In this document: piece after piece, positions 21,803 to 61,502 of the stretch | How the letters are laid out: every line of letters begins with the position of its first letter | Numbering within the stretch: the first letter of the stretch is position 1 | Position numbers and translations under genes: made by a program | Source: Pomacea canaliculata | Taxonomy: Eukaryota | DNA length: 64,000 bases | NCBI RefSeq assembly: GCF_003073045.1 | Contig: NC_037593.1 | Coordinates: 29,329,367 to 29,393,366, forward strand | Reading direction: 5' to 3' | Notes under the pieces: generated by a model | What the model was told of the DNA's origin: nothing | Seen by the model: only the letters and a program-made list of their open reading frames with translations | Databases searched by the model: none

Positions 21803-21834
<32 letters not shown>

Positions 21835-37085: not shown

Positions 37086-37169
37086 GCTTTTGTGGAATCC
37101 TAAAACGTGTGCTTATATTAAACGTGTTTATTGCATCAACTAAATAATCGCCAGTAGTGTCTAGTATAT

Positions 37170-37350: not shown

Positions 37351-38255
37351 AAAGCAAAGAGCCAAGAGTAGACTCATCTTGTCACGAAGAAGACTCAAAT
37401 TTTTATTCGCATTTTGTATCTCCCCTCTTGACACCTGATGATCACCCCGAGGGTGCTAAATTCGTCTGAGTGAAGATGAACAACTACAGTGTGTTTAGAA
37501 GAGTCGAGAAACCAGGGTTCCTTCTGGCAGACACACAGTCGCCTAGCAGTCACCTAGAAGATAGAAAATTAATTGTGGTCATCACACACCATTAAATTCT
37601 GTGCCCAAAGTTTCAGTGTCACTGGAGATTTTTCAAACGGTCAGTTTTGGTGGAAGATAAGTAAAAATTAATCAAAAACTCTTCGCAATATAGTGTATGG
37701 GCTGGTCCCTTTGTTAGATCAGCATGATCTACACTTGTTTAAAATAGTATTTCCTTTTGCAAAACCCATAGCAAAGGAATCGGGATTCAGAACTTAAATG
37801 TTATGATTTAAGCAAAAAGTTATTGCTCAGAGTGTCATTACTGTTGTTTGTCGGGGAGCTGGGTGAGTTTCTATGTTTACACAGCTCTGTCACGACTAAA
37901 ACCATTGAAATATCACGTGCATAAAATTTTTTTCTAGGTGGAGACTCTAACAGTGCAGTTGTAACAAATGGTGCACGACAAAGCCATTAGTATTAGTCCA
38001 CCAAATGTTTTTAAGTTATTCAATATTATCGATGTTTATTTACTTCTGTTTTTCAGATTAAAAATTCCTGCTTTCTTTTCACGAATTCGTTGGCTTACAT
38101 TAATGCTTCCATCTTTACAAAAGCACTGAGCAAATTACTTTTCTATAATAAAAATAAATTAAAATCAAAAGAGTTCATTAGTTTATCAAATTAATTTTAT
38201 TTGGTAAATGCAAGATTTCAGACAAATTTGTTTTTGAAAAGAACGGAAAACGATA

Positions 38256-38502
38256 ATGGAGTCAGAAGTTGCCCAAACAACGCCAGCCACATCACGTGAC
38301 CTCTCTGCCCGCTATGGGACAACAGGAACTCTGACTTACCTCGGAGATGACCCCCGACCTTTCACCTATGTTCTCGACGGTTACGCCTGTATGCCGTTTG
38401 TTCCACCGACGCTGTCGACGACTTTAGATGTTCATATTGATAATCTCAAAAACATGCAGCTTCGGGATGATGACATGATAATATGTGCTTATCCTAAGGC
38501 AG
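38256..38502 (+). CDS. SULT-10 cytosolic sulfotransferase (subfamily II), coding exon 1 of 5
   Basis: ATG at 38256 'MESEVAQTTPATSRDLSARYGTTGTLTYLGDDPRPFTYVLDGYACMPFVPPTLSTTLDVHIDNLKNMQLRDDDMIICAYPKA(G)'. GTGGGT donor. Confidence 0.85.
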
Positions 38503-38988
38503 GTGGGTAAATTGGTAAAGCTAACCATCTCGATCCTTGAACCAACTCTAACACACAAACTACACACAAGCGAGCACGAGTAAATATACACACTTGTATC
38601 TCTCAAGCAGAACATCCTTCAGCCTTGAAGAAAGATTTCTTTAAAAGGTTTAAGATAATATTGATTAGGGTAACAAATAAATAATTAAACAATAGAACAA
38701 TTGATAGAGATCATATAAGGATTGGGGACCTTCTGTGATCTGGTTATCAGTGATTTCGATTGTTGACCAGAAAATCGCACGTTCGATACCGACTTCGGTC
38801 TGTTCCTTAAAAAAGCCTCGCCTATCAGGGGAAGTAAAAATAAGGAGTGGGGAGAACTTCATTTGTTGCCGTTGAGTCCACTTTACAATAGGACTCTGTA
38901 CTTCCCCTTTAATAAAGAAAATCAAAACCATAATAGTTATCGACGGAAGGAGAAATCTATGCTTTGTCTTCCCTTAATCATTTTTCAG

Positions 38989-39315
38989 GAACTCACTGGC
39001 TGTGGGAGGTGACCTCCATGTTGTTGCAGGGCAAGGCCGAGTATGACAGTCGCCCCAAGGAGGAACTCATGATGGAGTTCATTGACGTTGACAAACTGGA
39101 GAAAACACCTTCTCCCAGGATCCTCAACTCCCACCTGCCCTTCTACATGCTGCCATGGCAACAAATGAAGGGGAAACGAACAAAGATCCTATATGTGTAT
39201 CGAAATCCCAAAGATTCCTGTGTGTCCTTCTATCACCATATGAAAGCCTTTGATGAGGGTCCGATCCATGACATGGCATTCAACGATTTCTGCGAGTTAT
39301 TTTTCTTTGGAAAAT
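38989..39315 (+). CDS. SULT-10 coding exon 2
   Basis: 'tttttcag|GAACTCACTGG'. '(G)THWLWEVTSMLLQGKAEYDSRPKEELMMEFIDVDKLEKTPSPRILNSHLPFYMLPWQQMKGKRTKILYVYRNPKDSCVSFYHHMKAFDEGPIHDMAFNDFCELFFFGK(C)'. GTGGGT donor. 327 nt. Confidence 0.85.
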
Positions 39316-40043
39316 GTGGGTAACATATTTGTGTCTGTTTGGGGGGTTATTTTATTTTGTTTTGTTTCGTTTGTTGTTTTGTTTCGTTTTCTTTTTTTGT
39401 TAGTAGCCAAATTGTCAAGACTTCAATACAGTAAACAATAATTTATACATGTCATACTTATATATTTATTTATTGTTAACAAATCTCAATGAACCTCCTT
39501 AATGTATACTTAGCTGCTATTATTTCTTAAATTTCACAGTTAAAATTTTGCTGACTTCAAAGTTAATTTTTACTTTGTTTTGAGTCTTCCCTTTCGTAAA
39601 TTTAGTTTTTTTGATTCACGTAAAGTAAATTTTGAATAGAGTGATTAAACGTTTTGCTGTGCCTGATGGAAAATTCTTTTTTTTTTCCTAAGGTGTTCTT
39701 GCAAACCACTAATAATAAAAACGGAAAAATAGGAAAAGAAAAAAAAACAACCAAAACAACCAAACAACTTCTTTAAACATGTAATTTGAAAAAATATTTT
39801 AAATTTCAATTTTCTATTAAAGTTTTTGTCAGTGAATAAATATTCAGTTTCCTTTGATCTTAAACATTCTCTGGAATGCTCATTTGAAATGTTTGTGTAA
39901 ATTTTTGTTTATTTTGCCGATTTCAAGGGCATTAAAAAGAGAAAAACAAGGCAGAACTGTTTATTAAAAATGCTGATCACCTTCAAGATGTACATGTTGC
40001 ATAAAAGATAAAATTTATTTCATGCACAAAAATCTCATTTCAG

Positions 40044-40147
40044 TGCCATTCGACAACTACTTCTGGCACATGAAGCAGGTAACCACATTTGTAGAGGAGA
40101 ACCCCGACCTGCCAGTTCTGACTCTGTCGTTTGAAGACATGAAGAAG
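40044..40147 (+). CDS. SULT-10 coding exon 3
   Basis: 'ctcatttcag|TGCCATTCGACAACTAC'. '(x)PFDNYFWHMKQVTTFVEENPDLPVLTLSFEDMKK'. GTTGGT donor. 104 nt. Confidence 0.8.
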
Positions 40148-40318
40148 GTTGGTTCATATTTCACAGTCTACTTCAAATTATTCTTTCACAAAAATTCTGC
40201 CTTCAACATTCAACTCCAGTTTTAAGCAACAATCAAAAATATAAAGCGATGCAGATGTAGACGCTTTCTGATGCCCATTTTTTTAGTTCTCTTGAAGCCT
40301 TTTTTTGATTTATTTCAG

Positions 40319-40514
40319 AATCCCTTAGAAAATGTGAAACGTTTGGCCAAGTTTTTGGAACTGGATGTCGACGAACAGCTTTGTAAAGACATCACCGATG
40401 CCTGCAGCTTCAATAATTTGAAGAAAGGAGCTGCGCTGAAAAAAATCCCGCTTTCAATTTTAGAAATGGAAAATGCGGAGAAAAAACCTCCCCCTCTTGA
40501 ATTTTACCGAAAAG
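40319..40514 (+). CDS. SULT-10 coding exon 4
   Basis: 'tttatttcag|AATCCCTTAGAAAATGTG'. 'NPLENVKRLAKFLELDVDEQLCKDITDACSFNNLKKGAALKKIPLSILEMENAEKKPPPLEFYRK(G)'. GTCAGT donor. 196 nt. Confidence 0.8.
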
Positions 40515-40719
40515 GTCAGTTTTACTACTTGACAAAACTGTATAAATAAATGTATCAATCACAATGAGTCCTAGCATGTCTTGGAAGTCTCAGTGTGTGC
40601 GTGAGAGTACGCGCATCGGTTTAATATTTTTCACTGTCTCAAAAAGTCCATTTTTATTTATTTATTTACTTATGCAGCATTTTCACAAGTAAATAATGTA
40701 GTCTGTACTACATTTGCAG

Positions 40720-40829
40720 GAGAAATAGGAGACTGGAAAAACTATTTCACGGTGGCCATGAGCGAAAAAATGGACGGCGCCATTAAAGACCGGATGGAAG
40801 GACTTCCTTACGGCCTGCAGTACTCGTGA
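40720..40829 (+). CDS. SULT-10 coding exon 5
   Basis: 'catttgcag|GAGAAATAGGAGACTGG'. '(G)[35 protein letters not shown]'. TGA stop at 40827-40829. Exon sum 984 nt. Confidence 0.85.
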
Positions 40830-41340
40830 TGCCGGCCATGATGTTTTGTTTATTTACACAATCAGCTCCCTCTGCACCCAGATGTGTATTTCTAAGCGTT
40901 CAAAAACTGTCAGCCCTTTGACCTTTCAGACACAATTTAAGACACTGTAATGTATGATTATCCAACTACTGTCATATCAGAACTCTCATGTAATCAGAAA
41001 TATAATTCACACATATAATTATCATATATATCACACATATAATTATCCCTGTATAAAAGTCGTTCACTTTACAGAACCTACACAGGTGTGCGGCAATGGT
41101 TGGTGTGATCGAAAACAAACGTCGTCTTCTTTGATTTTTCAATAAAACTTTATTTATTTAGCAACGGTTTACTGAATAATGTGCTCGTGTTTGTGTAAAA
41201 AAAAATTTTACAGATTAATGTTACACCTTTACATCAATACAAATTAATATCAAAATATATATTACATCAACTAATAAGGAAGAAAAATATACAGATATAT
41301 ATATATTCAAGTGTCGATTCCCAAGTAGAGTCTAGTATCT

Positions 41341-44300
41341 CACTCACTCACTCACTCACTCACTCACTCACTCACTCACTCACTCACTCACTCACTCACT
41401 CACTCACTCACTCACTCACTCACTCACTCACTCACTCACTCACTCACTCACTCACTCACTCACTCACTCACTCACTCACTCACTCACTCACTCACTCACT
41501 CACTCACTCACTCACTCACTCACTCACTCACTCACTCACTCACTCACTCACTCACTCACTCACTCACTCACTCACTCACTCACTCACTCACTCACTCACT
41601 CACTCACTCACTCACTCACTCACTCACTCACTCACTCACTCACTCACTCACTCACTCACTCACTCACTCACTCACTCACTCACTCACTCACTCACTCACT
41701 CACTCACTCACTCACTCACTCACTCACTCACTCACTCACTCACTCACTCACTCACTCACTCACTCACTCACTCACTCACTCACTCACTCACTCACTCACT
41801 CACTCACTCACTCACTCACTCACTCACTCACTCACTCACTCACTCACTCACTCACTCACTCACTCACTCACTCACTCACTCACTCACTCACTCACTCACT
41901 CACTCACTCACTCACTCACTCACTCACTCACTCACTCACTCACTCACTCACTCACTCACTCACTCACTCACTCACTCACTCACTCACTCACTCACTCACT
42001 CACTCACTCACTCACTCACTCACTCACTCACTCACTCACTCACTCACTCACTCACTCACTCACTCACTCACTCACTCACTCACTCACTCACTCACTCACT
42101 CACTCACTCACTCACTCACTCACTCACTCACTCACTCACTCACTCACTCACTCACTCACTCACTCACTCACTCACTCACTCACTCACTCACTCACTCACT
42201 CACTCACTCACTCACTCACTCACTCACTCACTCACTCACTCACTCACTCACTCACTCACTCACTCACTCACTCACTCACTCACTCACTCACTCACTCACT
42301 CACTCACTCACTCACTCACTCACTCACTCACTCACTCACTCACTCACTCACTCACTCACTCACTCACTCACTCACTCACTCACTCACTCACTCACTCACT
42401 CACTCACTCACTCACTCACTCACTCACTCACTCACTCACTCACTCACTCACTCACTCACTCACTCACTCACTCACTCACTCACTCACTCACTCACTCACT
42501 CACTCACTCACTCACTCACTCACTCACTCACTCACTCACTCACTCACTCACTCACTCACTCACTCACTCACTCACTCACTCACTCACTCACTCACTCACT
42601 CACTCACTCACTCACTCACTCACTCACTCACTCACTCACTCACTCACTCACTCACTCACTCACTCACTCACTCACTCACTCACTCACTCACTCACTCACT
42701 CACTCACTCACTCACTCACTCACTCACTCACTCACTCACTCACTCACTCACTCACTCACTCACTCACTCACTCACTCACTCACTCACTCACTCACTCACT
42801 CACTCACTCACTCACTCACTCACTCACTCACTCACTCACTCACTCACTCACTCACTCACTCACTCACTCACTCACTCACTCACTCACTCACTCACTCACT
42901 CACTCACTCACTCACTCACTCACTCACTCACTCACTCACTCACTCACTCACTCACTCACTCACTCACTCACTCACTCACTCACTCACTCACTCACTCACT
43001 CACTCACTCACTCACTCACTCACTCACTCACTCACTCACTCACTCACTCACTCACTCACTCACTCACTCACTCACTCACTCACTCACTCACTCACTCACT
43101 CACTCACTCACTCACTCACTCACTCACTCACTCACTCACTCACTCACTCACTCACTCACTCACTCACTCACTCACTCACTCACTCACTCACTCACTCACT
43201 CACTCACTCACTCACTCACTCACTCACTCACTCACTCACTCACTCACTCACTCACTCACTCACTCACTCACTCACTCACTCACTCACTCACTCACTCACT
43301 CACTCACTCACTCACTCACTCACTCACTCACTCACTCACTCACTCACTCACTCACTCACTCACTCACTCACTCACTCACTCACTCACTCACTCACTCACT
43401 CACTCACTCACTCACTCACTCACTCACTCACTCACTCACTCACTCACTCACTCACTCACTCACTCACTCACTCACTCACTCACTCACTCACTCACTCACT
43501 CACTCACTCACTCACTCACTCACTCACTCACTCACTCACTCACTCACTCACTCACTCACTCACTCACTCACTCACTCACTCACTCACTCACTCACTCACT
43601 CACTCACTCACTCACTCACTCACTCACTCACTCACTCACTCACTCACTCACTCACTCACTCACTCACTCACTCACTCACTCACTCACTCACTCACTCACT
43701 CACTCACTCACTCACTCACTCACTCACTCACTCACTCACTCACTCACTCACTCACTCACTCACTCACTCACTCACTCACTCACTCACTCACTCACTCACT
43801 CACTCACTCACTCACTCACTCACTCACTCACTCACTCACTCACTCACTCACTCACTCACTCACTCACTCACTCACTCACTCACTCACTCACTCACTCACT
43901 CACTCACTCACTCACTCACTCACTCACTCACTCACTCACTCACTCACTCACTCACTCACTCACTCACTCACTCACTCACTCACTCACTCACTCACTCACT
44001 CACTCACTCACTCACTCACTCACTCACTCACTCACTCACTCACTCACTCACTCACTCACTCACTCACTCACTCACTCACTCACTCACTCACTCACTCACT
44101 CACTCACTCACTCACTCACTCACTCACTCACTCACTCACTCACTCACTCACTCACTCACTCACTCACTCACTCACTCACTCACTCACTCACTCACTCACT
44201 CACTCACTCACTCACTCACTCACTCACTCACTCACTCACTCACTCACTCACTCACTCACTCACTCACTCACTCACTCACTCACTCACTCACTCACTCACT

Positions 44301-47300
44301 CACTCACTCACTCACTCACTCACTCACTCACTCACTCACTCACTCACTCACTCACTCACTCACTCACTCACTCACTCACTCACTCACTCACTCACTCACT
44401 CACTCACTCACTCACTCACTCACTCACTCACTCACTCACTCACTCACTCACTCACTCACTCACTCACTCACTCACTCACTCACTCACTCACTCACTCACT
44501 CACTCACTCACTCACTCACTCACTCACTCACTCACTCACTCACTCACTCACTCACTCACTCACTCACTCACTCACTCACTCACTCACTCACTCACTCACT
44601 CACTCACTCACTCACTCACTCACTCACTCACTCACTCACTCACTCACTCACTCACTCACTCACTCACTCACTCACTCACTCACTCACTCACTCACTCACT
44701 CACTCACTCACTCACTCACTCACTCACTCACTCACTCACTCACTCACTCACTCACTCACTCACTCACTCACTCACTCACTCACTCACTCACTCACTCACT
44801 CACTCACTCACTCACTCACTCACTCACTCACTCACTCACTCACTCACTCACTCACTCACTCACTCACTCACTCACTCACTCACTCACTCACTCACTCACT
44901 CACTCACTCACTCACTCACTCACTCACTCACTCACTCACTCACTCACTCACTCACTCACTCACTCACTCACTCACTCACTCACTCACTCACTCACTCACT
45001 CACTCACTCACTCACTCACTCACTCACTCACTCACTCACTCACTCACTCACTCACTCACTCACTCACTCACTCACTCACTCACTCACTCACTCACTCACT
45101 CACTCACTCACTCACTCACTCACTCACTCACTCACTCACTCACTCACTCACTCACTCACTCACTCACTCACTCACTCACTCACTCACTCACTCACTCACT
45201 CACTCACTCACTCACTCACTCACTCACTCACTCACTCACTCACTCACTCACTCACTCACTCACTCACTCACTCACTCACTCACTCACTCACTCACTCACT
45301 CACTCACTCACTCACTCACTCACTCACTCACTCACTCACTCACTCACTCACTCACTCACTCACTCACTCACTCACTCACTCACTCACTCACTCACTCACT
45401 CACTCACTCACTCACTCACTCACTCACTCACTCACTCACTCACTCACTCACTCACTCACTCACTCACTCACTCACTCACTCACTCACTCACTCACTCACT
45501 CACTCACTCACTCACTCACTCACTCACTCACTCACTCACTCACTCACTCACTCACTCACTCACTCACTCACTCACTCACTCACTCACTCACTCACTCACT
45601 CACTCACTCACTCACTCACTCACTCACTCACTCACTCACTCACTCACTCACTCACTCACTCACTCACTCACTCACTCACTCACTCACTCACTCACTCACT
45701 CACTCACTCACTCACTCACTCACTCACTCACTCACTCACTCACTCACTCACTCACTCACTCACTCACTCACTCACTCACTCACTCACTCACTCACTCACT
45801 CACTCACTCACTCACTCACTCACTCACTCACTCACTCACTCACTCACTCACTCACTCACTCACTCACTCACTCACTCACTCACTCACTCACTCACTCACT
45901 CACTCACTCACTCACTCACTCACTCACTCACTCACTCACTCACTCACTCACTCACTCACTCACTCACTCACTCACTCACTCACTCACTCACTCACTCACT
46001 CACTCACTCACTCACTCACTCACTCACTCACTCACTCACTCACTCACTCACTCACTCACTCACTCACTCACTCACTCACTCACTCACTCACTCACTCACT
46101 CACTCACTCACTCACTCACTCACTCACTCACTCACTCACTCACTCACTCACTCACTCACTCACTCACTCACTCACTCACTCACTCACTCACTCACTCACT
46201 CACTCACTCACTCACTCACTCACTCACTCACTCACTCACTCACTCACTCACTCACTCACTCACTCACTCACTCACTCACTCACTCACTCACTCACTCACT
46301 CACTCACTCACTCACTCACTCACTCACTCACTCACTCACTCACTCACTCACTCACTCACTCACTCACTCACTCACTCACTCACTCACTCACTCACTCACT
46401 CACTCACTCACTCACTCACTCACTCACTCACTCACTCACTCACTCACTCACTCACTCACTCACTCACTCACTCACTCACTCACTCACTCACTCACTCACT
46501 CACTCACTCACTCACTCACTCACTCACTCACTCACTCACTCACTCACTCACTCACTCACTCACTCACTCACTCACTCACTCACTCACTCACTCACTCACT
46601 CACTCACTCACTCACTCACTCACTCACTCACTCACTCACTCACTCACTCACTCACTCACTCACTCACTCACTCACTCACTCACTCACTCACTCACTCACT
46701 CACTCACTCACTCACTCACTCACTCACTCACTCACTCACTCACTCACTCACTCACTCACTCACTCACTCACTCACTCACTCACTCACTCACTCACTCACT
46801 CACTCACTCACTCACTCACTCACTCACTCACTCACTCACTCACTCACTCACTCACTCACTCACTCACTCACTCACTCACTCACTCACTCACTCACTCACT
46901 CACTCACTCACTCACTCACTCACTCACTCACTCACTCACTCACTCACTCACTCACTCACTCACTCACTCACTCACTCACTCACTCACTCACTCACTCACT
47001 CACTCACTCACTCACTCACTCACTCACTCACTCACTCACTCACTCACTCACTCACTCACTCACTCACTCACTCACTCACTCACTCACTCACTCACTCACT
47101 CACTCACTCACTCACTCACTCACTCACTCACTCACTCACTCACTCACTCACTCACTCACTCACTCACTCACTCACTCACTCACTCACTCACTCACTCACT
47201 CACTCACTCACTCACTCACTCACTCACTCACTCACTCACTCACTCACTCACTCACTCACTCACTCACTCACTCACTCACTCACTCACTCACTCACTCACT

Positions 47301-49342
47301 CACTCACTCACTCACTCACTCACTCACTCACTCACTCACTCACTCACTCACTCACTCACTCACTCACTCACTCACTCACTCACTCACTCACTCACTCACT
47401 CACTCACTCACTCACTCACTCACTCACTCACTCACTCACTCACTCACTCACTCACTCACTCACTCACTCACTCACTCACTCACTCACTCACTCACTCACT
47501 CACTCACTCACTCACTCACTCACTCACTCACTCACTCACTCACTCACTCACTCACTCACTCACTCACTCACTCACTCACTCACTCACTCACTCACTCACT
47601 CACTCACTCACTCACTCACTCACTCACTCACTCACTCACTCACTCACTCACTCACTCACTCACTCACTCACTCACTCACTCACTCACTCACTCACTCACT
47701 CACTCACTCACTCACTCACTCACTCACTCACTCACTCACTCACTCACTCACTCACTCACTCACTCACTCACTCACTCACTCACTCACTCACTCACTCACT
47801 CACTCACTCACTCACTCACTCACTCACTCACTCACTCACTCACTCACTCACTCACTCACTCACTCACTCACTCACTCACTCACTCACTCACTCACTCACT
47901 CACTCACTCACTCACTCACTCACTCACTCACTCACTCACTCACTCACTCACTCACTCACTCACTCACTCACTCACTCACTCACTCACTCACTCACTCACT
48001 CACTCACTCACTCACTCACTCACTCACTCACTCACTCACTCACTCACTCACTCACTCACTCACTCACTCACTCACTCACTCACTCACTCACTCACTCACT
48101 CACTCACTCACTCACTCACTCACTCACTCACTCACTCACTCACTCACTCACTCACTCACTCACTCACTCACTCACTCACTCACTCACTCACTCACTCACT
48201 CACTCACTCACTCACTCACTCACTCACTCACTCACTCACTCACTCACTCACTCACTCACTCACTCACTCACTCACTCACTCACTCACTCACTCACTCACT
48301 CACTCACTCACTCACTCACTCACTCACTCACTCACTCACTCACTCACTCACTCACTCACTCACTCACTCACTCACTCACTCACTCACTCACTCACTCACT
48401 CACTCACTCACTCACTCACTCACTCACTCACTCACTCACTCACTCACTCACTCACTCACTCACTCACTCACTCACTCACTCACTCACTCACTCACTCACT
48501 CACTCACTCACTCACTCACTCACTCACTCACTCACTCACTCACTCACTCACTCACTCACTCACTCACTCACTCACTCACTCACTCACTCACTCACTCACT
48601 CACTCACTCACTCACTCACTCACTCACTCACTCACTCACTCACTCACTCACTCACTCACTCACTCACTCACTCACTCACTCACTCACTCACTCACTCACT
48701 CACTCACTCACTCACTCACTCACTCACTCACTCACTCACTCACTCACTCACTCACTCACTCACTCACTCACTCACTCACTCACTCACTCACTCACTCACT
48801 CACTCACTCACTCACTCACTCACTCACTCACTCACTCACTCACTCACTCACTCACTCACTCACTCACTCACTCACTCACTCACTCACTCACTCACTCACT
48901 CACTCACTCACTCACTCACTCACTCACTCACTCACTCACTCACTCACTCACTCACTCACTCACTCACTCACTCACTCACTCACTCACTCACTCACTCACT
49001 CACTCACTCACTCACTCACTCACTCACTCACTCACTCACTCACTCACTCACTCACTCACTCACTCACTCACTCACTCACTCACTCACTCACTCACTCACT
49101 CACTCACTCACTCACTCACTCACTCACTCACTCACTCACTCACTCACTCACTCACTCACTCACTCACTCACTCACTCACTCACTCACTCACTCACTCACT
49201 CACTCACTCACTCACTCACTCACTCACTCACTCACTCACTCACTCACTCACTCACTCACTCACTCACTCACTCACTCACTCACTCACTCACTCACTCACT
49301 CACTCACTCACTCACTCACTCACTCACTCACTCACTCACTCA
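41341..49342. repeat. Giant uninterrupted tetranucleotide microsatellite (CACT)n, ~8.0 kb, ~2000 units (AGTG on the opposite strand)
   Basis: Every 60-nt line from 41341 to 49320 reads cactcactca... with no variant base. The tract ends 'cactcactca|gacttttttt' at 49342 and begins after 'gtctagtatct' at 41340. Confidence 0.97.
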
Positions 49343-50300
49343 GACTTTTTTTATTTGTCACTGTCAGATTTGAACACACCACCTTTCAGTCTTCAGACCT
49401 CGTCTTTAGCCACCAGGCTATACAGCCGTTAGCAACTAACGTGCCTAAACTTCGTGAAAAAGTCAAGTTCGCCGTTTACAACAATCAACAAATCCGCTGA
49501 ACCGAGACGCACACGCCCAGAACCGGTGACGTCATCGACAACGAGGCTGCTGTTAACGAAGATGACTAGTGCACGACGGACCACAAACACCCTGCTACTG
49601 TCCCCCTAGGTCCCTCCAACTGCCAGGAACACACACGTCATACTCAATGGAGTGAACAAGATCGGAGTGACAGACGGCAACAACCTACCCGATCCTCTCC
49701 CCTCCAGACATCATTGTACGCGTGGTCAGAGTTGCCTGCCCAGTCAATGGAGGACATCGAAAACGGACAGCAGTACCCTACAAAGAACACCAACAAGAAA
49801 TAAGTGACAAGATGGCCCGGCCCTCCACAGTTCATGACAATTGCTATCCCATAATGTCGAGGACTGTGTGTGGACGGCAAGACACAATCAAGACAAGGGA
49901 GAGAATAAGTTTCACTGACCCAGTGACTACGCGACACGAGGTGTCCGTGCTAACGGTCACCAGGACACAGCACGGGACTCACCCGTGAAAATATTTCACA
50001 TCTTCAACTGCGACATCGACGGTTTGCTCGTGAAAACACACTATCCTGGCTTTGTACAAAGCATTAACGTGTTTGTTATTGTGTCTTACAGACATTGCTT
50101 GACGTCAGCAGTACACTGCAATGTTTCTCTGACTTCCAACGATACTTCAGTCCTGCTTCTACACTTACATCGCAAGGAAGAGCTGCCGGCCGATATCCTT
50201 GTTTTAGTAAAAAATGTATTTAATAAGTTTTTGCATAGACTGCAGTGTACGGTTGACAATTTTATTTTATTGCAATTTGACACCGAGTTTAACGAGACAA

Positions 50301-51293
50301 GTAGTTTACTGGCATGGACTCCTGTAGCCTACTGGCCGAAGTGGCTCATCATGTCTAGAGTACGCCCCGTGGAAAGCGGAATCAAAGCTTTCCCTCCTCC
50401 ACATTTACATCTGTAAGCTTTGTGTGTGTGTGTGGGTGCGTGCGTGCGTGGATGAGAGAGAGAGAGGGTGTGTGTGTTCTAGAGAGTGAGCGTTCTCTCT
50501 CTCTTTCAAGTCTCACTGGAGGGGTGCACGCATGTGTGTGTAAGAAAGAGCAAGATCACATTAAAAGAAATCCGTGATGACGCTCAATAAATAAATAACT
50601 AAATCATTATTCACCTTTCGATTTGTAACCGCATAAAATTCTAGAATGTGGAAAGGGATGGACTGCGGGTCAGCATTCATATGAAGACTGTTTTTCTACT
50701 CTCACCATCATGACAAGTGATCACTTGTTAGGATTTTCGAAACAAGTGAGATCACATCAGAGTTTGAAAAATATCAGTCTCATCAAAATAACCGACCTGA
50801 GGTCACTTGTAGGCGGCCATCTGGATGCACATCAAACACATGAACAGATGGCTGGCTTTATGCTTACAAACACTACCTGATGGAACATTACATGTGGAAA
50901 CACAGTGGCTAGTCAAGCAGCTAGTCCATCATGCCTTTGGCTTGAGTTTGTACTGAGCAACGCAAGCACTCGTAACCAAGCTAGCTATGTGCTAGCATAA
51001 TGCTTGGCATGGCCAGGATGAACAGACAAACAAACAAGCTAGCTATGTTCTAGCATAATGCTAGGCATGGCCAGGGTGAACAGACAAACAAACAAGCTAG
51101 CTATGTGCTAGCATAATGATTGGCATGGCCAGGGTGAACAGATAAACATGAATAAATGAGCGAAGTAGTTTACTGGCATGGACTCCTGTAGCCTACTGGC
51201 CGAAGTGGCTCATCATGTCTAGAGTACGTCCCGTGGAAAGCGGAATCAAAGCTTTCCCTCCGCCACATTTACATCTGTAAGCTTTAAATAGCT
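50301..51293. repeat. Two ~128-bp direct repeats (50301-50428 and 51166-51293) flanking a ~60-bp x3 tandem minisatellite (50940-51140) and (TG)n/(GA)n tracts
   Basis: 'agtagtttactggcatggactcctgtagcctactggccgaagtggctcatcatgtctagagtacg(c/t)cccgtggaaagcggaatcaaagctttccctcc(t/g)ccacatttacatctgtaagcttt' occurs twice. Between them, 'caagctagctatgtgctagcataatgcttggcatggccagggtgaacagacaaacaaa' repeats three times. Confidence 0.8.
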
Positions 51294-51649
51294 CCTTATA
51301 AATCAGGTAGCCACTTTTATTTTTACTGAAAAGAATGAGCAGGATGGAGAGTGGGGGGGGTGGGGAAGCAGAATCCTATCCACAGGCCACAAACCAGTGA
51401 CCATATGCAGTAACTTCCGAACACGAAGTCTACCCTTATTCTAAGGGGTGACTAATACATTTACTTTTGCATTATCCTAACATAAAAAATTCCATTTAAA
51501 ATGAAAGAAAAACTGGATAAAAAATAAAAATACGTTAAATGAACAATGTCAGTGACACTAACTCAGATGAAGTGATGATCCAGACATTTTAGAGTTGGCT
51601 AATATCGATGCAGTCTTGGCTTGCATCACATTAGAATGCTAAATTTTGA

Positions 51650-52350
51650 TTGCCGAGGTAGTCACGTGACCGTGGTGACGGGCCTGGCGACCTACCCGTC
51701 GTAAAATATGCGGCGTTCAATCGGAGCGCCAGTTGAGAAGGTGAAGAAATGGGTGATTTACCAGTCGACACACCACGTGACCTATCAGACGCGCGCGCAG
51801 CAATCAGCGGAAGGGGGTAGGGGTTCGGTTACCAATTAGGTCGGGAGTGCCGGCGATTAGCTGCCGAGCCTTGCACCTTGGCCCAGTGGGCCGCGGGCGG
51901 ACGCAAGTCAAACAAGTGTGCCGCGCGAGGACCGCGCCAGTGCACGTGCGACGCGTGGCGACACGGTGCGCCTAATGAGGCGGTCAGCCTCGTGCCGCGA
52001 GGGGCGCCCGTGCACCAGACCTGACGTAGGGCTGTTGTGCGGCGTCAAAGTTGCAGCAGCTCGTCGAACGCCGCCGACCTCGGGTCCGAGTCCCCCGATG
52101 TACCACTCCCGTGCACCCACCAGCCTCAAACATCCTCAATAGCCTCCCCTGGCAAAAGAGAAGTGGTGCGCGGGAAAATGACACGCCGGAAGTGGCATGA
52201 AAGTGATGGCGCCTTCACACACCAGTTGGCAATCATTGACTAGGTTACCGCAGCTTATTCTTCCATTGTCGGAGCAAACCAGCGAGCAGTTTGCCCTCGC
52301 CCCCCGCTTCTGTCAGACTGTAGAGCGGGACCCACATCTGTGTGCGCGCG
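51650..52350. other. CpG-rich, GC-rich island-like segment (~700 bp) without a convincing ORF. Candidate CpG-island promoter or non-coding locus.
   Basis: Dense CG dinucleotides, e.g. 'gccgcgggcggacgcaagtcaaacaagtgtgccgcgcgaggaccgcgccagtgcacgtgcgacgcgtggcgacacggtgcgcc..cgtcgaacgccgccgacctcgggtccgag'. Includes GTCACGTGAC at 51661-51670 and CACGTG at 51774. Both strands carry only overlapping ~70-aa ORFs typical of GC-rich noise. Confidence 0.5.
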
Positions 52351-53040
52351 TGCGAGAGAGAAAGAAGGATAATCGTGAAGGAGTGAATAAAACTTACATT
52401 TGAGAAACACCTCCAAGAAAAGACAAACGTATAGTTCAGAATAAACGCAAAAATAAAAACGGTATCTTGAGAGAATGTCGATGCTAGATATCAGATATCA
52501 GATATAAATTATAGCAAATTGTATTGAAACAGATTTTCAATGGTGTGAAGAGACACGCTGGTCATTAGTGTCAAAGTGTCAAATGATACAGTAAATTATT
52601 TAACACCTACATACAGCAAGGTACACGACAGTAAACCCAGACATTATTGTGACTGTCTGTGGTAAAGTTTGTTTTAAATATACATTATTTTTTCATAAAA
52701 TAAGTAAACTATAAGCTAAACTACATCGTCCTCGTCATGTGTCATTTTAAAATTTGGACTGACATGTAGATGTTAAATTGTTACATATTTTTAAAAAGTT
52801 GATTTTGTCAGAGCTTTCTAGCATCAATGCTGTTAAATTACAATAGATAAGTTGATGTGTTTGGCAAAATATGTCGGACTTCTCTATTATATTTTATGTG
52901 AGATATGTTTGCCACATTCCACAGCTGGTCCATGCACAAAAAAACAAATTCCAAATTTCCGAACCCACAGTCCGAACACTTCCACTGTCACACACATCTT
53001 ATGTTCTTCCGACATTCAATTCCCCCTCCCCCCTAAAAAA

Positions 53041-53270
53041 AATCTCCAGTTGAAAATGACACCAAGTCTCCACTTGAATATAACACCAAGTTTCCACTTC
53101 TAGGTAACACAAATATGTCCACTTGAATATAACACCAAGTCTCCACTTGAATATAACACAAAGTTTCCACTTCTAGGTAACACAAATATGTCCACTTGAA
53201 TATAACACAAAGTTTCCACTTCTAGGTAACACAAATATGTCCACTTGAAAGTAACACAAAGTTTTCACTG
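53041..53270. repeat. Minisatellite, ~22-24 bp unit x ~9-10
   Basis: Alternating units 'ccacttgaatataacaccaagtct' / 'ccacttctaggtaacacaaatatgt' repeated in tandem. Confidence 0.8.
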
Positions 53271-55634
53271 ACACCGATGCTCTTCCTGAAGTTATTTCTA
53301 ATTCAGCTCTGGTTGGTGAGCCCGAGGCGGATACGATGAATAAGCGAAGATCAAACAACAAAAGTGAGAAAAAAAAAACCCACAAAAACCTGGAGAAAAA
53401 AAGTCTTTTGCTAAATGGCAAGTTCAAAACTTAACTAACATTCTTCAAACATTAAACACACGCTCACCGAACAATCAACAAAGATACACACTCACCTCCA
53501 AGATACAAATCTGGTCAGGATGTGCCCAGTCCAGTCAAGGCTAACTTCAATTCTGTTCAGGACTTGTTAAATAACACAATCTGGTCAGGATGTGCACAGT
53601 CGGTCAGGACTACAACACCAAGTCGGTTCAAGACTTGTTGCAAACAAACTGATGACACACTGATGACACCGAGGAGACTGTTACTTCTCCCGCCCGTCAA
53701 GGAAAAACTCACACAACAACATCCCAAACACTCAAACACTCTTTCCTTTGTTCTTCGAACAAAACAACCTATCAACACCAGTTGATTAAAAAAAAAAAAA
53801 AACAACAACAAAAAAACAAAGCCCGGCCGGCCATCCCTGTGTGGCGCGCACTCAGACAGTATTGCTGTCTTTCAACCTCCCCTTCCAGTTACTTTTTCCC
53901 TGTCTCCTTCCTAGCTCAAAAAAAAAAAAAAAAAAAAAAACATTAAAAAATATAGCGCAGCAGGTTTGTGACATACCTCAATCTCATTTATTATTACTTT
54001 CTTTGTTTAAACGTCTGGTCAAACAGATTTCTCAAATCATGAAGTGGAGTCATATCTGGCGTCCTGTCGGTAGAGGTTGTTGCTACTAATCCACTGAAAG
54101 ACTTTGCAGCTTACATATCTTGTATTATTTAATTTTAACATAATGATTATCTAAAATTGGAACTTTTGTAGTTAAAAATAATTTTTGTGCATCAACACTC
54201 TGGCCAAACAGACACACAACAACAAAAAAAAAGAAAAAAAGAAAACAATGTCTAAACTTTTGACATAAAGGCACGAGAGTGAGTAGTGTTCATGGAGTGG
54301 TGAAATACTAAATTAAGGATGAATGAAAACGGTCCAGCTGATATTCAGTCTGCATCAAACCTTTAAATGTCATGTCAACATCATCTTGTGTGATAATGTA
54401 TGTGGACTGCCACTTGTTTGGCAGTAACAAGTTGGTTATTTAACTAATAAGCTTTGTCCGTCAATGGAGAAGCAGCCAGAGACATTGGTGTGGAAGGAAT
54501 GTGCCATGTCGCATTATGTAAAAAATACTGTCATGTTTGAAATGAGTGTAATGGCGAAGCCTGCAAGGAAAAATAACTTTGGTACACGGGAAATGGCCAA
54601 AAGCAGCTTTACATGTAGGATCATCGAAACACAAATCATTTCCGGTCAGTAGGTCGCGCACGATTCTCCATTGGGTGTGGGAGCCCCTCACAGGGTGCAA
54701 ACGTACCCACTCTTTGGTTTGAGATCATAAAGCATTCTTGTAGTGACGATCATATAATAAATCGTGCTCGAAAGGCAAGTTAATGGATGAGTTTCTCATG
54801 ACAATGGCCAACATGCAAATTTCTCTGTTAGGATCAAGTTAATTATACATCTACAGAGGTTTTCTCTCAGTGATTCTTTAATTGTGTGGAGGACGTTTGC
54901 GATTGGTTTGTGGCTGTCGAACCTTTGCAGTCAGATGTTCCGAAATGTTTGTAAAGGAGACATGCAGGACATATAAGTCACAGGGCAGAGACATTCATTT
55001 TGTCCTTTTCAGTTCGGAAAAGAATTACCTGCAGCTGATATAAATTACATCAAGCCTTATGAAACTGATATAAAGCCTTGTGGTTACTACTTCATAGCAG
55101 CTCTCAGTTCCACGTTCGCTTGGCCCAGTGACAAGAAAAAGCTCTTCTAGGAGCCTAGAGCCAGTAAACCACTCACAGTTAGCCCACTCAATGTATCATC
55201 ATCGTTATTTCCTAAGATAGCAGTTTCATAATCCACTTACCGGAAATTGGTCATGAAGCCTTTGTTGAAGCGAGACATTCGATGAGATAAAATCTGAGAA
55301 GAAGGGGAACTGCCAGGGTCGAGACTGGAACTGTTTTCCCGTCAGACAATGTTTCAAAGTACAGCACCCTTTCCTTTCTTTAGCAACCAGTAGGTGAGAC
55401 AAACACAAATGTTTAGCTTAGTCTCGGGATTTTTTCTAAACCGAGTATATTTGACGGCGCCATCGTTAGGACAACAAGGAAAGGACTTTCTTTGAAGTTA
55501 TAAGTTATCGGTAGCCGTGAGATCAGATCCCGTCCCCAACACACCTTTTTTTTTTTTTTTTTTTTACCTTCTTTTCCGTACTCCCACCCGGCTAGCCTCT
55601 TGGTGACAAATTATGGGTAATGATCAGTAATGCA

Positions 55635-58850: not shown

Positions 58851-58960
58851 TCACGAATACTGTATGACATAGGGCAGGTCTTTCAACTCTTTCTCCACGA
58901 CTGCGTCCATCTGCTCGCTCATGGCCACAGTAAGATAGTTCTTCCAGTCGCCCACCTCTC
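58851..58960 (-). CDS. SULT-11 coding exon 5
   Basis: 'gttccag|GAGAGGTGGGCGACTGG'. '(G)[35 protein letters not shown]'. TGA stop at 58851-58853. Exon sum ~921 nt. Confidence 0.8.
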
Positions 58961-59175
58961 CTGGAACACAAACATACAAAGATTCATTACATCAGGTAGA
59001 TGATAAATCAAACAGGACTTTTTTCTTCATTTTGGATGATATGTTGAAAAATTTATGTCTCGCCATATTGTAACACACTGAGGAAGGTTATTTTTAAAAT
59101 ACCGACAGTCTTCAAAATTTGTCCTTTTTACCATAGTGTGATAGCATTGACAAGTAGCACAATATCCATAATTAC

Positions 59176-59362
59176 CTTTTCTGTACATATTCATCTTTCT
59201 ATGTGGAATATTTTTGCTTTTGGTAAATTCTGGAATGGCTTTCTTCTCATCCTGTTTCTTCATGTTCTGGAAGCTGCAGGCCTCTGCGATTTCTTCACAC
59301 AGTTGCTGTGATGCTGGAACTTCCAAAAACTCAGCAATCTGCTTTACTTTATCTGAGGGACT
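59176..59362 (-). CDS. SULT-11 coding exon 4
   Basis: 'tttttcag|AGTCCCTCAGATAAAGTAAAGCAG'. 'SPSDKVKQIAEFLEVPASQQLCEEIAEACSFQNMKKQDEKKAIPEFTKSKNIPHRKMNMYRK(G)'. GTAATT donor. 187 nt. Confidence 0.8.
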
Positions 59363-59558
59363 CTGAAAAACAAGTTTTATGCAAATATAGACACAATCTA
59401 AATACTAATTCTATATTTGACAAACCACTTGAAAGAGATGTAGACCTAATAAATTCAAATCTCTAAAATATCTCAGAATGGAACCAGAGAATACTGATGC
59501 CTGTTGTCAAGACAAAATTGTGTAAATTGTATCAGAGATTTGCAGTGGCCTTACAAAC

Positions 59559-59662
59559 CCGTTTCATATCTTCAAAGGAGATGGATAATATAGGAATGTT
59601 CGGATTTTCTTGGGTAAAATCGTGAAACTGCCGCAAGTAACTGAAGTAAGCACCATAGTTGA
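59559..59662 (-). CDS. SULT-11 coding exon 3
   Basis: 'tgtttcag|TCAACTATGGTGCTTACTTC'. '(x)NYGAYFSYLRQFHDFTQENPNIPILSISFEDMKR'. GTTTGT donor. 104 nt. Confidence 0.8.
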
Positions 59663-59905
59663 CTGAAACAGAACAAAATGTACAATCCCTTTATTATTGT
59701 AAGTCATCGAATGGAAAGATGAGACAGACAGGGACAGAGAGGGGAAGGCCAAGAAGCAGATACAGAAAGAGTGTAATCAACGTGTAGAACATACCTGTAC
59801 ACATACACACATATATGTGACAAGGGGCAGATAATTTCTGCTGTAAAAGTTACTCGTTTGCTCCCCTTTTTATGCAAAAAAAAATAATAAATCATATTTG
59901 CTTAC

Positions 59906-60223
59906 CTTTGCCATCTAAGAATCGTTGAAAAAATTCTGAAAATTCAACGAATGTATTGAAAAGGTTCTTTTGCATGAAGTAGAAGGATACAACAGTGTCC
60001 TTAGGATTGCGATAAACATGAAGGACCTTGACACGCTTGTCTCTGATCTGTTGCCACGGCAACATAGAAAACGGAAGATGCGTATTGAGGATGCGCGGAG
60101 ACGCCATGGCCGCTACCATGTCCACGTCGACAAAGTCGACCATCAGCTGTTCCTTGCGACGAGTCTCGTACTCGGCCTTGCCTTGCAGCAACATGGAGGT
60201 CACCTCCCACAGCCAGTGAGTTC
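59906..60223 (-). CDS. SULT-11 coding exon 2 (318 nt)
   Basis: 'ttggtcag|GAACTCACTGG'. '(G)THWLWEVTSMLLQGKAEYETRRKEQLMVDFVDVDMVAAMASPRILNTHLPFSMLPWQQIRDKRVKVLHVYRNPKDTVVSFYFMQKNLFNTFVEFSEFFQRFLDGK(G)'. GTAAGC donor. Confidence 0.8.
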
Positions 60224-61300
60224 CTGACCAACAGATATGGACACAGAGTGAGTTGTTGACTAACAAAGATGGACACGCCTAATTAATTCGACATACCGCA
60301 AAATGGGGTTCATATCTCCCACAATAGCCATCTGTCGCAGTCTTGGTCAATGTAACAGGTTAACAATAGTCCTTCCCTCCACAGCAAAAGTTTCTTTTAA
60401 TCACTGAAGATTTCCATGCATACAACCTCAGCTCCATCTCATTGAAGTGAGGGAGGGATCCAAGGGTTAAATTTGTTAATTTTAAAGAGTGGATCTTTTG
60501 TATAAAGAATTTTTTTTTTATTTTGAAGGAATTGGTGGCTGTCAACTATGTGAGGTTCAGTCCTTGCGAGCAGACGGCTGCCATGTCGATTTAAAGCTTG
60601 CCCGTTGTATTTGTGATTGATGCAGATATAGGAACTTTTAAACAAGATTCTAAAGCCAAAACCTTTCTTATCTGATAGTTGATAAAGGCTTTCTTGCACA
60701 CCCACGTGTGTGTGGTGGTGGTGGTGGTGGTAGGAGACAGGTACAGCCATTATGTCCTGCCCCACTTTGCCAGAGCTTTGAAGTACAAGCCGTCTGCTCC
60801 ATGTTCTACATTTTGACCTGTTCATGAAATGTTTTTATTACCCCACCTTCTGATCTTTTCTGGCGTGTTTCATCAGAAAGGCATTACCATTTGTGATTTT
60901 GCTCTCTCTCTCTCCCTCCTTCTCGTGTATGTGTGTATGAATATTTAGGCCCTCGTTATATTTTTAATCAAGAACAAGGGGTGTGCTTATCAAATGAGTT
61001 CGTGCAAACAAGTGTTTGCCAGCAAGCATTCGTGTAAAGGTGAGAAAAATGTGAGGCAATTGTTAGAACTACAGCGAGTAAATCTGCTGAACAGCAGTGG
61101 TCGTGGGTTACCAAATTAAACCTCAGCCTCTTTCTGATCATAGTCAGACGTCTCTCACCTTATTCTGATATCTGTTATTTCCCCCATCAACCTGAGTCCT
61201 ATCTCTCTCTCTCTCTGACCTCTTTCACATCACATCATACTTCACATCAATCTCATCCCTCTCACTACAGTCTGACCCCTCTCAGAGTCGGACATCTTAC

Positions 61301-61502
61301 CTGTTTTGGGGTAGGTACACAGCAGGATGTCATCGTGTCGAAGCTCCATGTTGCGCAGATCATCGATGTGTTTCTCCCACTCCTCTTTGTTAAATCGGAA
61401 ACTGGGCAGAGGAATACCTTCTACCAGCCAGTAAATTGGATCAAGCTTGCCATCTTTCTCGTTTTCCATCTTGAAAGAGCTGTTGTGTTCCTGGCTTGTC
61501 AT
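61301..61502 (-). CDS. SULT-11 cytosolic sulfotransferase (subfamily III), coding exon 1 of 5
   Basis: Probable ATG at ~61502 (minus) 'MTSQEHNSSFKMENEKDGKLDPIYWLVEGIPLPSFRFNKEEWEKHIDDLRNMELRHDDILLCTYPKT(G)'. GTAAGA donor. The ORF track extends upstream to ~61559 with a non-ATG start, so the start is uncertain by 1-2 nt and up to 57 nt. Confidence 0.65.

What the first reader, a model, noticed from the sequence alone, without database searches (positions are those of the whole stretch)
41341..49342. Extraordinary 8.0-kb perfectly pure (CACT)n tetranucleotide tract (~2000 units) splitting the SULT array
The tract shows no interruption or variant unit over ~8002 bp. Natural microsatellites of this length normally accumulate point interruptions, so a perfect tract is either a very recent or ongoing expansion, a region homogenised by replication slippage or unequal exchange, or an assembly artefact (for example a collapsed or expanded long-read consensus). 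It begins only ~510 bp downstream of the SULT-10 stop codon and separates the main array from SULT-11, so it may coincide with a rearrangement breakpoint or fragile site. Such a tract should form slipped-strand structures and is likely to be length-polymorphic.
Basis: seen in the sequence. Interest (0 to 1): 0.85.

Follow-up and report, generated by a model that had tools for sequence, protein, structure and literature searches.

The report
Giant CACT microsatellite beside snail sulfotransferase genes
An 8-kb run of the four letters CACT sits between two sulfotransferase genes of the golden apple snail; the repeat locus is real, but its huge length and perfect purity rest on one noisy long-read assembly, and nothing suggests a function.

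Summary
Window 41339-49342 is (CTCA)x2001, 8,004 bp, with no variant unit. The next-longest perfect simple repeat in the window is 29 bp.

The window is the Pomacea canaliculata cytosolic sulfotransferase (SULT) cluster. The tract starts 510 bp after the SULT-10 stop codon and about 190 bp after its AATAAA. It lies in an 18-kb tail-to-tail spacer before SULT-11.

An independent Illumina assembly (Logan, SRR34434914) ends in 29 nt of pure CACT repeat joined to the same right flank. So a CACT microsatellite at this locus is real and was not invented by the assembler.

Length and purity are unverified. The reference came from error-prone PacBio CLR reads (mean 10.1 kb) plus Pilon. By my reasoning, that pipeline would erase sparse interruptions. 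About 17-21 reads could span 8 kb, so the size is plausible.

Neither strand can self-pair, so hairpin-stabilised slipped structures are not expected. I found no transposon, tRNA/SINE or coding association. A 4.6-kb reference-only segment begins 960 bp to the right.

Verdict: a genuine, probably functionless, hyper-expanded microsatellite. It is a known kind of feature at extreme size. Interest is low to moderate.

The parts
41339..49342 (.). Perfect (CTCA)2001 / (CACT)2000 tetranucleotide tract, 8,004 bp. The plus strand has only C, A and T and is open in all three frames as (HSLT)n. The minus strand is (TGAG)n, with TGA in every frame and 1999 overlapping GTGAGT hexamers.
38256..40828 (+). 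SULT-10 (GenBank C0Q70_08306 / RefSeq XP_025090227), five exons, stop codon TGA at 40826-40828.
41141..41146 (+). The only AATAAA between the SULT-10 stop and the tract, so the likely SULT-10 poly(A) signal. The tract starts 193 bp after it. Homology to the paralogous spacer (36840-37063) ends at about 41160.
   Evidence: assignment as the poly(A) signal is inference
41161..41338 (.). AT-rich unique left flank with no degenerate CACT units (9/48 matches to the continued pattern). The left junction could not be checked in independent data.
49343..50302 (.). Right flank, present at 98-99% identity in 14 independent Illumina assemblies. One of them (L005) runs 29 nt into a pure CACT repeat, with a small junction variant (ref CACTCA-GAC-T7 against L005 CACTCACTC-T5).
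50303..54891 (.). Reference-only 4,589-bp segment, replaced by a conserved ~698-bp segment in 14/14 independent contigs. It contains 131-bp direct repeats, a 58-bp x3 tandem, a 24-bp x9.5 tandem and poly(A) runs.
58851..61502 (-). SULT-11 (C0Q70_08307), convergent with SULT-10. Its 3' end lies about 9.5 kb right of the tract.

Best explanation
This is a genuine intergenic (CACT)n microsatellite of Pomacea canaliculata. In the haplotype assembled as the reference it has expanded to kilobase scale, about 8 kb.

Shown here:
- The tract is in the sequence.
- A pure CACT repeat of at least ~30 nt abuts the same right flank in another individual.
- The tract lies in a non-coding, tail-to-tail spacer just past the probable SULT-10 poly(A) signal.
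- It has sharp, non-degenerate borders.
- It has no detectable transposon, RNA-gene or protein-coding association.

Inferred:
- It grew from a short seed by replication slippage and/or unequal sister-chromatid or break-induced replication. The growth was recent relative to the age of ordinary polymorphism in this species.
- It is selectively neutral or mildly deleterious, with no function.
- Its 100% purity is at least partly produced by the method. Noisy CLR reads lose register inside a periodic tract, so rare variant units are outvoted in the consensus. Multi-mapping short reads in Pilon cannot restore them.
- Its exact length (2001 units) should be read as roughly 8 kb, give or take several percent.
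For: Tract and borders.

Organism and gene context: SULT exons are 100% identical to C0Q70_08305/08306/08307 of P. canaliculata. These are consecutive locus tags with no gene annotated between them.

Independent support for the locus: L005 (Logan assembly of SRR34434914) starts with 29 nt of pure CACT repeat. It then matches window 49343-50302 at about 98%.

Plausibility of the size: the reference used 55x PacBio reads of mean length 10.1 kb. A simple read-length model gives about 17-21 reads spanning 8-10 kb. Both flanks carry paralogues of the same gene cluster, which argues against a chimeric join.

Purity is uninformative: the pipeline was smartdenovo plus Pilon '-fix bases'. Cumulative indel drift has an sd of about 6 units at 4 kb from an anchor.

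Youth, if the purity is real: heterozygosity of 1-2% predicts 80-160 differences per 8 kb of ordinary DNA.

Natural CACT tracts elsewhere are short and decayed.

No TE, RNA or protein signal was found.

Precedent for kb-scale tetranucleotide expansion in an animal: DM2 CCTG, 75 to >11,000 units (PMC9462847).
Against: - No spanning long read, second long-read assembly or left-junction sequence could be reached. The 8-kb length is therefore unverified.
- The unit count is suspiciously round: exactly 2000 CACT, or 2001 CTCA.
- A 4.6-kb segment only 960 bp away is absent from 14/14 other samples. The reference-type ORF across its left edge is on record nowhere. So either this haplotype is rare or the local assembly is imperfect.
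- Whole-genome TRF tandem repeats total only 873,801 bp in this assembly. This one tract would be 0.9% of that total, which makes it an outlier.
Confidence: 0.65

Rival explanations
1. Length artefact. The locus carries an ordinary CACT microsatellite of tens to a few hundred bp. The 8-kb tract was generated or inflated by the long-read assembly, through aberrant low-complexity reads, consensus slippage or a mis-join through the repeat.
For: - Exactly 2000/2001 units.
- Independent data prove only >= ~30 nt of repeat.
- The neighbouring 4.6-kb segment is not seen in 14/14 other samples, and the reference-type ORF is absent from the gene index.
- The tract is an outlier against 0.87 Mb of tandem repeats genome-wide.
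Against: - With 55x reads of mean length 10.1 kb, a short tract would be spanned by dozens of reads carrying both unique flanks. Those reads fix its length.
- Overlap assemblers collapse repeats rather than expand them (established behaviour, my knowledge).
- No published step of the pipeline caps at 8 kb.
- Both flanks belong to the same SULT cluster.
Confidence: 0.18
2. Collapsed satellite. The true array is much longer than any read (tens to hundreds of kb of CACT simple-sequence satellite). The assembler collapsed it to about read length.
For: The assembled length (8 kb) is close to the mean read length of 10.1 kb. A pure array gives overlaps in any register.
Against: - The two flanks are neighbouring members of one gene cluster.
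- The assembly covers ~98.6% of the k-mer genome size.
- Collapse would be expected near the longest anchored reads, not the mean (inference).
Confidence: 0.1
3. Transposon-borne microsatellite. The tract is the expanded tail or internal microsatellite of a retroposon (SINE/LINE) or of a mollusc Helentron-type element (pearl / DTC84 / Cg_HINE).
For: - On the minus strand the tract follows an A-rich stretch (AAATAAAAAAAGTC) and a segment that looks tRNA-like by eye.
- Short tandem arrays lie 1.6 and 3.7 kb to the right.
- Mollusc HINEs carry tetranucleotide microsatellites (PMC3879986, PMC7492417).
Against: - ARAGORN finds no tRNA, and Rfam finds none even at E<=10.
- The alignment to a remembered tRNA-Phe sequence is no better than other window tiles.
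- There is no second copy of either flank in the window.
- The 12-nt inverted match is not above the window null.
- The right-flank ORFs have no Pfam domain.
- Four independent k=31 contigs read straight through 49366-49460, so it is not a young high-copy repeat.
- HINE microsatellites are short, decayed, of other motifs (ACGG, ACTG, GTCY), and lie within 10-500 bp of the core repeats.
Confidence: 0.05
4. Functional element. The array acts in cis between the convergent genes as a terminator, insulator or RNA-binding platform. For example, the antisense RNA is ~2000 tandem GUGAGU U1-snRNP sites, and it is G-rich and C-free, which favours R-loops.
For: - Position about 190 bp beyond the SULT-10 AATAAA, in a convergent spacer.
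- 1999 GTGAGT hexamers on the minus strand.
- GC skew of -1.
Against: - There is no evidence of transcription, conservation or selection.
- Other convergent SULT pairs (for example SULT-5/6, with a 1.1-kb spacer) lack any such tract.
- Function does not require, and would hardly tolerate, 8 kb of unstable repeat (inference).
Confidence: 0.02

Closest known systems
DM2-type tetranucleotide expansion: (CCTG)n in intron 1 of human CNBP, 75 to >11,000 units (PMC9462847)
   Same: A 4-bp unit, a kilobase-scale largely uninterrupted tract at a single locus with unique flanks, non-coding, and arising from a short normal microsatellite.
   Different: - DM2 strands self-pair (CAGG -13.7 kcal/mol per 100 nt), whereas CACT and AGTG do not (0 kcal/mol).
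- DM2 is intronic and transcribed. This tract is intergenic in the annotation and lies past the likely poly(A) signal.
- Instability and mosaicism are documented for DM2 and untested here.
Ordinary genomic CACT/AGTG microsatellites, seen as degenerate (HSLT)n stretches in predicted proteins of many eukaryotic assemblies
   Same: Same motif class. A single-locus simple repeat generated by slippage.
   Different: The best of 1,135 database hits aligned over at most about 220 residues (under 700 bp) and are heavily interrupted, at 44-83% identity to pure HSLT. This tract is more than 10 times longer and has no interruption.
Simple-sequence satellite DNA, e.g. Drosophila (AAGAG)n and snake/vertebrate Bkm (GATA/GACA)n (my own knowledge, not tested here)
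   Same: Very long arrays of a 4-5-bp unit kept homogeneous by unequal exchange.
   Different: Such satellites are multi-locus, heterochromatic and reach tens of kb to Mb. This is one 8-kb array inside a euchromatic gene cluster, in an assembly with only 0.87 Mb of tandem repeats in total.
Tetranucleotide microsatellites of mollusc Helentron non-autonomous elements: pearl, DTC84, Cg_HINE (PMC3879986, PMC7492417)
   Same: A mollusc genome, a 4-bp microsatellite, and short tandem-repeat arrays in the neighbourhood.
   Different: In those elements the microsatellites are short and eroded, with motifs ACGG, ACTG or GTCY. They lie 10-500 bp from ~160-bp core repeats and between sub-terminal inverted repeats. 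None of these features was found here.

Membership tests
Microsatellite (simple sequence repeat) | Head-to-tail tandem array of a 1-6-bp unit | tested here: met
   (CTCA)x2001.0, 100% matches, 0 indels
Microsatellite (simple sequence repeat) | Single locus with unique flanks, present at the same site in other individuals | tested here: met
   The flanks are unique within the window. L005 from an independent run joins a pure CACT repeat to the same right flank.
Microsatellite (simple sequence repeat) | Length polymorphism between alleles | not testable with these tools
   k=31 short-read contigs stop about 29 nt into the repeat. Only a junction indel variant was seen.
Unstable expanded repeat of the DM2 / repeat-expansion-disease type | Kilobase-scale uninterrupted tract | tested here: inconclusive
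   Met in the assembly. However, the CLR plus Pilon pipeline makes both purity and exact length unreliable, and no spanning read is available.
Unstable expanded repeat of the DM2 / repeat-expansion-disease type | Repeat strands form hairpins or slipped-strand structures that stabilise slip-outs | tested here: not met
   DNA folding energy is 0 kcal/mol for (CACT)25 and (AGTG)25, against -4.4 and -13.7 for CCTG and CAGG.
Unstable expanded repeat of the DM2 / repeat-expansion-disease type | Located in a transcribed region (intron or UTR) | tested here: inconclusive
   It lies between consecutive locus tags and 193 bp beyond the only AATAAA after the stop. Read-through transcription was not testable.
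Simple-sequence satellite DNA | Many long arrays or high genomic abundance, in a heterochromatic location | not testable with these tools
   The Pomacea genome is not searchable here. The assembly-wide TRF total is only 873,801 bp, and the gene-cluster context also argues against this.
Helentron/HINE (pearl-type) or SINE/LINE-tail microsatellite | Microsatellite embedded in a repeated element with sub-terminal inverted repeats and adjacent core repeats, or with a tRNA-derived head | tested here: not met
   No tRNA or SINE by ARAGORN or Rfam. The inverted and tRNA-like matches are not above the window null. No second copy of the flanks in the window. Architecture and motif differ from the published elements.
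Assembly artefact | Feature absent from independent sequence data of the same locus | tested here: not met
   A pure CACT repeat is present on the same flank in SRR34434914. This covers the existence of the repeat only.
Assembly artefact | Length not supported by spanning reads | not testable with these tools
The model estimate of 17-21 spanning reads shows the assembler could have had support. The round count of 2000 units is a warning sign.

The most novel reading that the evidence does not exclude
The array is truly about 8 kb and truly pure in living snails. That would make it a very recent or ongoing tetranucleotide hyper-expansion whose strands cannot form hairpins, so it would have arisen by a mechanism other than hairpin-stabilised slippage. 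It would also mark an unstable spot, linked to the adjacent 4.6-kb / 0.7-kb structural polymorphism. Its antisense transcript, ~2000 tandem consensus 5' splice-site hexamers (GUGAGU), could act as a U1-snRNP / R-loop barrier between the convergent SULT-10 and SULT-11 genes.
Probability: 0.07. Interest if true: 0.6.

Novelty: new member of a known kind. Interest (0 to 1): 0.3.

Why it matters
If the 8-kb pure tract is confirmed by spanning reads, it would be a natural, non-disease example of a kilobase-scale tetranucleotide expansion in an invertebrate. Its motif has no self-pairing potential. That is useful for testing whether hairpin formation is needed for large expansions, and as a hypervariable marker in an invasive pest.

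If it is not confirmed, it is a cautionary example. CLR-plus-short-read-polished assemblies can present repeats as longer or purer than the data warrant. Either way it has no demonstrated bearing on sulfotransferase function.

Tried and rejected
1. tRNA-derived SINE head in the right flank (minus strand, 49362-49432). ARAGORN found none. Rfam found no tRNA at E<=1 over 11.7 kb or at E<=10 over 218 bp. The alignment to a human tRNA-Phe sequence recalled from memory scored 20, with 45 of 2000 shuffles at least as good and other window tiles scoring higher. Rejected.

2. Inverted repeat between the left flank (41302-41313) and the 24-bp tandem array (53039-53269). There is a 12-nt exact match, but nine other tile positions of the window score as well or better. 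Rejected.

3. Helentron/pearl-type architecture. The published features were not found.

4. TE proteins in 49343-58853. Ten stop-to-stop ORFs gave no Pfam hit.

5. Independent assemblies through SULT proteins or window ORFs. Six exact-protein look-ups failed, as did the exon-1 ORF. Ten flank ORFs were absent from the collection. A phmmer search of concatenated left-flank ORFs found only SULT exon homologues. The left junction could therefore not be verified.

6. JGI metagenome scans for both flanks gave 0 hits.

7. Literature. No report of CACT/ACTC/AGTG repeats in Pomacea or of such a tract was found. The mollusc SINE paper lists no CACT tails. The Cuscuta SSR arrays are under 400 bp, so they are not a precedent.

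8. Contig ends as a sign of a repeat boundary at ~49460. The left ends of the 14 contigs are scattered from 49317 to 49861, so there is no such signal.
Full report
**1. The observation**

A direct period scan finds a single perfect period-4 run at window 41339..49342 (8,004 bp), and every in-phase unit is CTCA. Tandem Repeats Finder gives 2001.0 copies, 100% matches, no indels and score 16008. The window contains no N. No other run of three or more CACT or AGTG units occurs anywhere else. The next-longest perfect simple repeat is 29 bp. Another microsatellite in the same window, (TC)35 at 21785-21854, is only 88% pure.

The borders are abrupt. The 48 nt on either side match the continued pattern at 9/48 and 17/48, against 12/48 expected by chance.

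**2. Where it is**

A spliced model of the gene to the left is 99% identical to 'hypothetical protein C0Q70_08306 [Pomacea canaliculata]' on a 34,737,321-bp record. Exons of ten annotated P. canaliculata sulfotransferases map to the window at 97-100% identity. tblastn shows eleven SULT genes with orientations - - - - + - - + + + | -.

SULT-10 (38256-40828, + strand) ends 510 bp before the tract. The only AATAAA in that interval is at 41141-41146, 193 bp before the tract. SULT-11 (C0Q70_08307) is on the minus strand at about 58851-61502. The tract therefore lies in an 18-kb tail-to-tail spacer between genes with consecutive locus tags. No gene is annotated on it, although the plus strand is open in all three frames as (HSLT)n.

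By protein identity, SULT-10 groups with SULT-6 (73%) and SULT-11 groups with SULT-8 and SULT-9 (70% and 63%). SULT-10 is thus the interloper, and the tract does not divide two subfamilies. The array has four orientation switches, and only this one carries a tract.

**3. How the sequence was made**

The reference genome (Liu et al. 2018, PMC6129957) was built as follows:
- 55x of filtered PacBio CLR reads, mean length 10.1 kb, subreads with up to 20% error retained.
- Assembly with smartdenovo.
- Correction with Pilon '-fix bases' using 150-250-bp Illumina reads.
- Scaffolding with Hi-C.

Heterozygosity was estimated at 1-2%. TRF tandem repeats in the whole 440-Mb assembly total 873,801 bp, so this single tract is 0.9% of them.

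Two consequences follow, both by inference from how such pipelines work.

First, the purity says little. Inside a perfectly periodic tract a noisy read has no register. With ~13% indels, the cumulative drift has an sd of about 3 units at 1 kb and about 6 units at 4 kb from the nearest unique anchor. A rare variant unit is therefore smeared over many positions and outvoted in the consensus. Short reads that carry it then have no matching site in the draft and are placed at random, so Pilon cannot restore it.

Second, the length is plausible but only approximate. A simple read-length model predicts 17-21 reads long enough to span 8-10 kb, so the assembler could have had true spanning support.

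**4. Independent evidence that the repeat locus is real**

Most routes to other Pomacea data failed (see the tried-and-rejected list). One worked. A stop-to-stop ORF in the right flank (49919-50413) retrieved a cluster of Logan-assembly proteins (P0241, P0243-P0245). These led to 14 short contigs from 14 different Illumina runs.

All 14 match window positions up to 50302 at 98-99% identity. One of them, L005 (SRR34434914), begins with 29 nt of pure CACT repeat followed by the same flank: CACTCACTCACTCACTCACTCACTCACTC|TTTTTATTTGTCACTGTCAGATTTGAAC. The reference reads ...CACTCA|GACTTTTTTTATTTGTCACTG. A k=31 graph assembler cannot pass a repeat longer than k, which explains why the contig stops there. 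Three more contigs stop 5-24 nt short of the tract.

So a CACT microsatellite of at least ~30 nt, with a slightly variable junction, sits on this same flank in another individual. The assembler did not invent the repeat. These data say nothing about its length. The left junction could not be reached.

**5. What it is not**

- Transposon tail. The right flank looked tRNA-like by eye and is preceded on the minus strand by an A-rich stretch. ARAGORN and Rfam find nothing even at E<=10. A sequence comparison is no better than the background of the window. Neither flank recurs in the window. Four independent contigs read through the segment without branching.
- Inverted repeat. A 12-nt inverted match between the left flank and a 24-bp tandem array 3.7 kb to the right is not above the window null.
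- Helentron-type element. Published mollusc elements carry short, eroded ACGG, ACTG or GTCY microsatellites within 10-500 bp of ~160-bp core repeats and between sub-terminal inverted repeats (PMC3879986, PMC7492417). That architecture is absent here.
- Coding sequence. ORFs of the 9.5-kb right spacer have no Pfam domain.

**6. Structure-forming potential**

With DNA parameters, (CACT)25 and (AGTG)25 both have a minimum free energy of 0 kcal/mol. The DM2 strands (CCTG)25 and (CAGG)25 give -4.4 and -13.7. The plus strand has no G at all. Read directly from the sequence, the motif is not an alternating purine-pyrimidine repeat, not a clean homopurine mirror repeat, and has no GG or CC runs.

Slip-outs would not be stabilised. 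One sequence-level curiosity is that the minus strand is 1999 overlapping GTGAGT hexamers, the consensus intron side of a 5' splice site, with TGA in every frame.

**7. Most likely explanation**

The best reading is a genuine intergenic microsatellite, hyper-expanded in the reference haplotype by slippage, unequal exchange or break-induced replication, and without function (confidence about 0.65).

If the purity were real, the tract would be far younger than ordinary polymorphism in this species, because 80-160 differences are expected per 8 kb between haplotypes. Natural CACT tracts recorded elsewhere support this contrast. A search with (HSLT)75 against 5.8 billion protein clusters returned 1,135 hits. 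In the 120 listed, the aligned stretch covers at most about 220 residues at 29-83% identity, and the six sequences I read show heavily interrupted repeats.

Kilobase-scale tetranucleotide expansion at a single locus is a known phenomenon in animals. DM2 CCTG runs from 75 to >11,000 units (PMC9462847).

**8. Reasons for caution**

- The unit count is exactly 2000 (CACT) or 2001 (CTCA). The chance of this is about 0.3% for a multiple of 1000 give or take 1, judged after the fact.
- At window 50302|50303, 960 bp right of the tract, all 14 independent contigs leave the reference. The eight that are long enough rejoin it at 54892. Between these points they carry a mutually 98.6-100% identical ~698-bp segment instead of the reference's 4,589 bp.
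- The reference-type ORF across that point is on record nowhere.
- The reference-only segment starts with a 131-bp repeat that also occurs on another chromosome (P0242). It contains tandem arrays and poly(A) runs.

This is either a rare TE-rich haplotype or a local assembly problem. Both lower confidence in the fine structure of 41-55 kb. I put 'length artefact' at about 0.18 and 'collapsed longer array' at about 0.10.

**9. Novelty and score**

The kind of feature, a microsatellite expansion, is well known. This particular locus and its size are not described in any paper I could find. It is best classed as a new member of a known kind, and its headline properties of 8 kb and 100% purity are still unverified.

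A specialist would be mildly surprised and would first ask for spanning reads. Interest is 0.3. The most novel reading not excluded is a truly pure, hairpin-free, ongoing expansion that marks an unstable spot and perhaps acts as a U1 / R-loop barrier between convergent genes. I give that about 7% probability.

Noticed in passing
window 50303-54891 (compare L001, L002, L005-L016): The reference carries a 4,589-bp segment that 14/14 independent Illumina assemblies (14 runs) replace with a conserved ~698-bp segment that has no match in the window. The breakpoints are identical in all of them (50302|50303 and 54891|54892). This is either a rare TE-rich haplotype or a local mis-assembly.
   Followed up: partly
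window 41341-49340: The tract is exactly 2000 CACT units (8,000 bp), or 2001.0 CTCA units by TRF. This is a suspiciously round number and I found no technical explanation for it.
   Followed up: partly
window 365-61502: Eleven cytosolic sulfotransferase genes lie in mixed orientation (- - - - + - - + + + -) and form two subfamilies. SULT-2 to 6 and SULT-10 form one, and SULT-8, 9 and 11 form the other. SULT-7 had no protein model and was not placed. SULT-10 is closest to SULT-6 (73%) but sits among the other subfamily.
   Followed up: partly
window 40271-40828: The GenBank model PVD32859.1 (C0Q70_08306, 302 aa) for SULT-10 reads through into the last intron (...RKGQFYYLTKLYK). The RefSeq model XP_025090227 is 327 aa, the same length as my spliced model ending ...GLPYGLQYS.
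   Followed up: partly
window 50291-51285: A 58-bp x3 tandem repeat (50974-51148) is bracketed by 131-bp direct repeats (50291-50421 and 51155-51285, 96% identical). The 131-bp unit is also translated in C0Q70_09161 on a different chromosome, so it is a dispersed repeat of unknown type.
   Followed up: partly
window 53039-53269: A tandem array of a 24-bp unit (AAAGTCTCCACTTGAATATAACAC, about 9.5 copies, with 49- and 73-bp higher-order periods) lies inside the reference-only segment.
   Followed up: no
L003 (1-4596) and L004 against window 33963-38638: Independent contigs covering SULT-9 to SULT-10 exon 1 are only ~92.5% identical to the window and have many gaps. Contigs right of the tract are 98-99% identical. 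The left-side contigs may come from a divergent haplotype, a paralogous copy or a sister species.
   Followed up: no
window 40903-41160 against 36840-37063: The sequence after SULT-10 up to about its poly(A) site is 69-79% similar to a stretch 1.4 kb downstream of SULT-9, including a TTTA microsatellite, (TTTA)7 at 37052-37079. This looks like a remnant of the duplication that created the array.
   Followed up: no
window 41339-49342, minus strand: The antisense strand is 1999 overlapping GTGAGT hexamers (consensus 5' splice-site intron side) with TGA in all three frames. The sense strand has no stop codon in any frame and would translate to (HSLT)n over 2,668 codons.
   Followed up: yes
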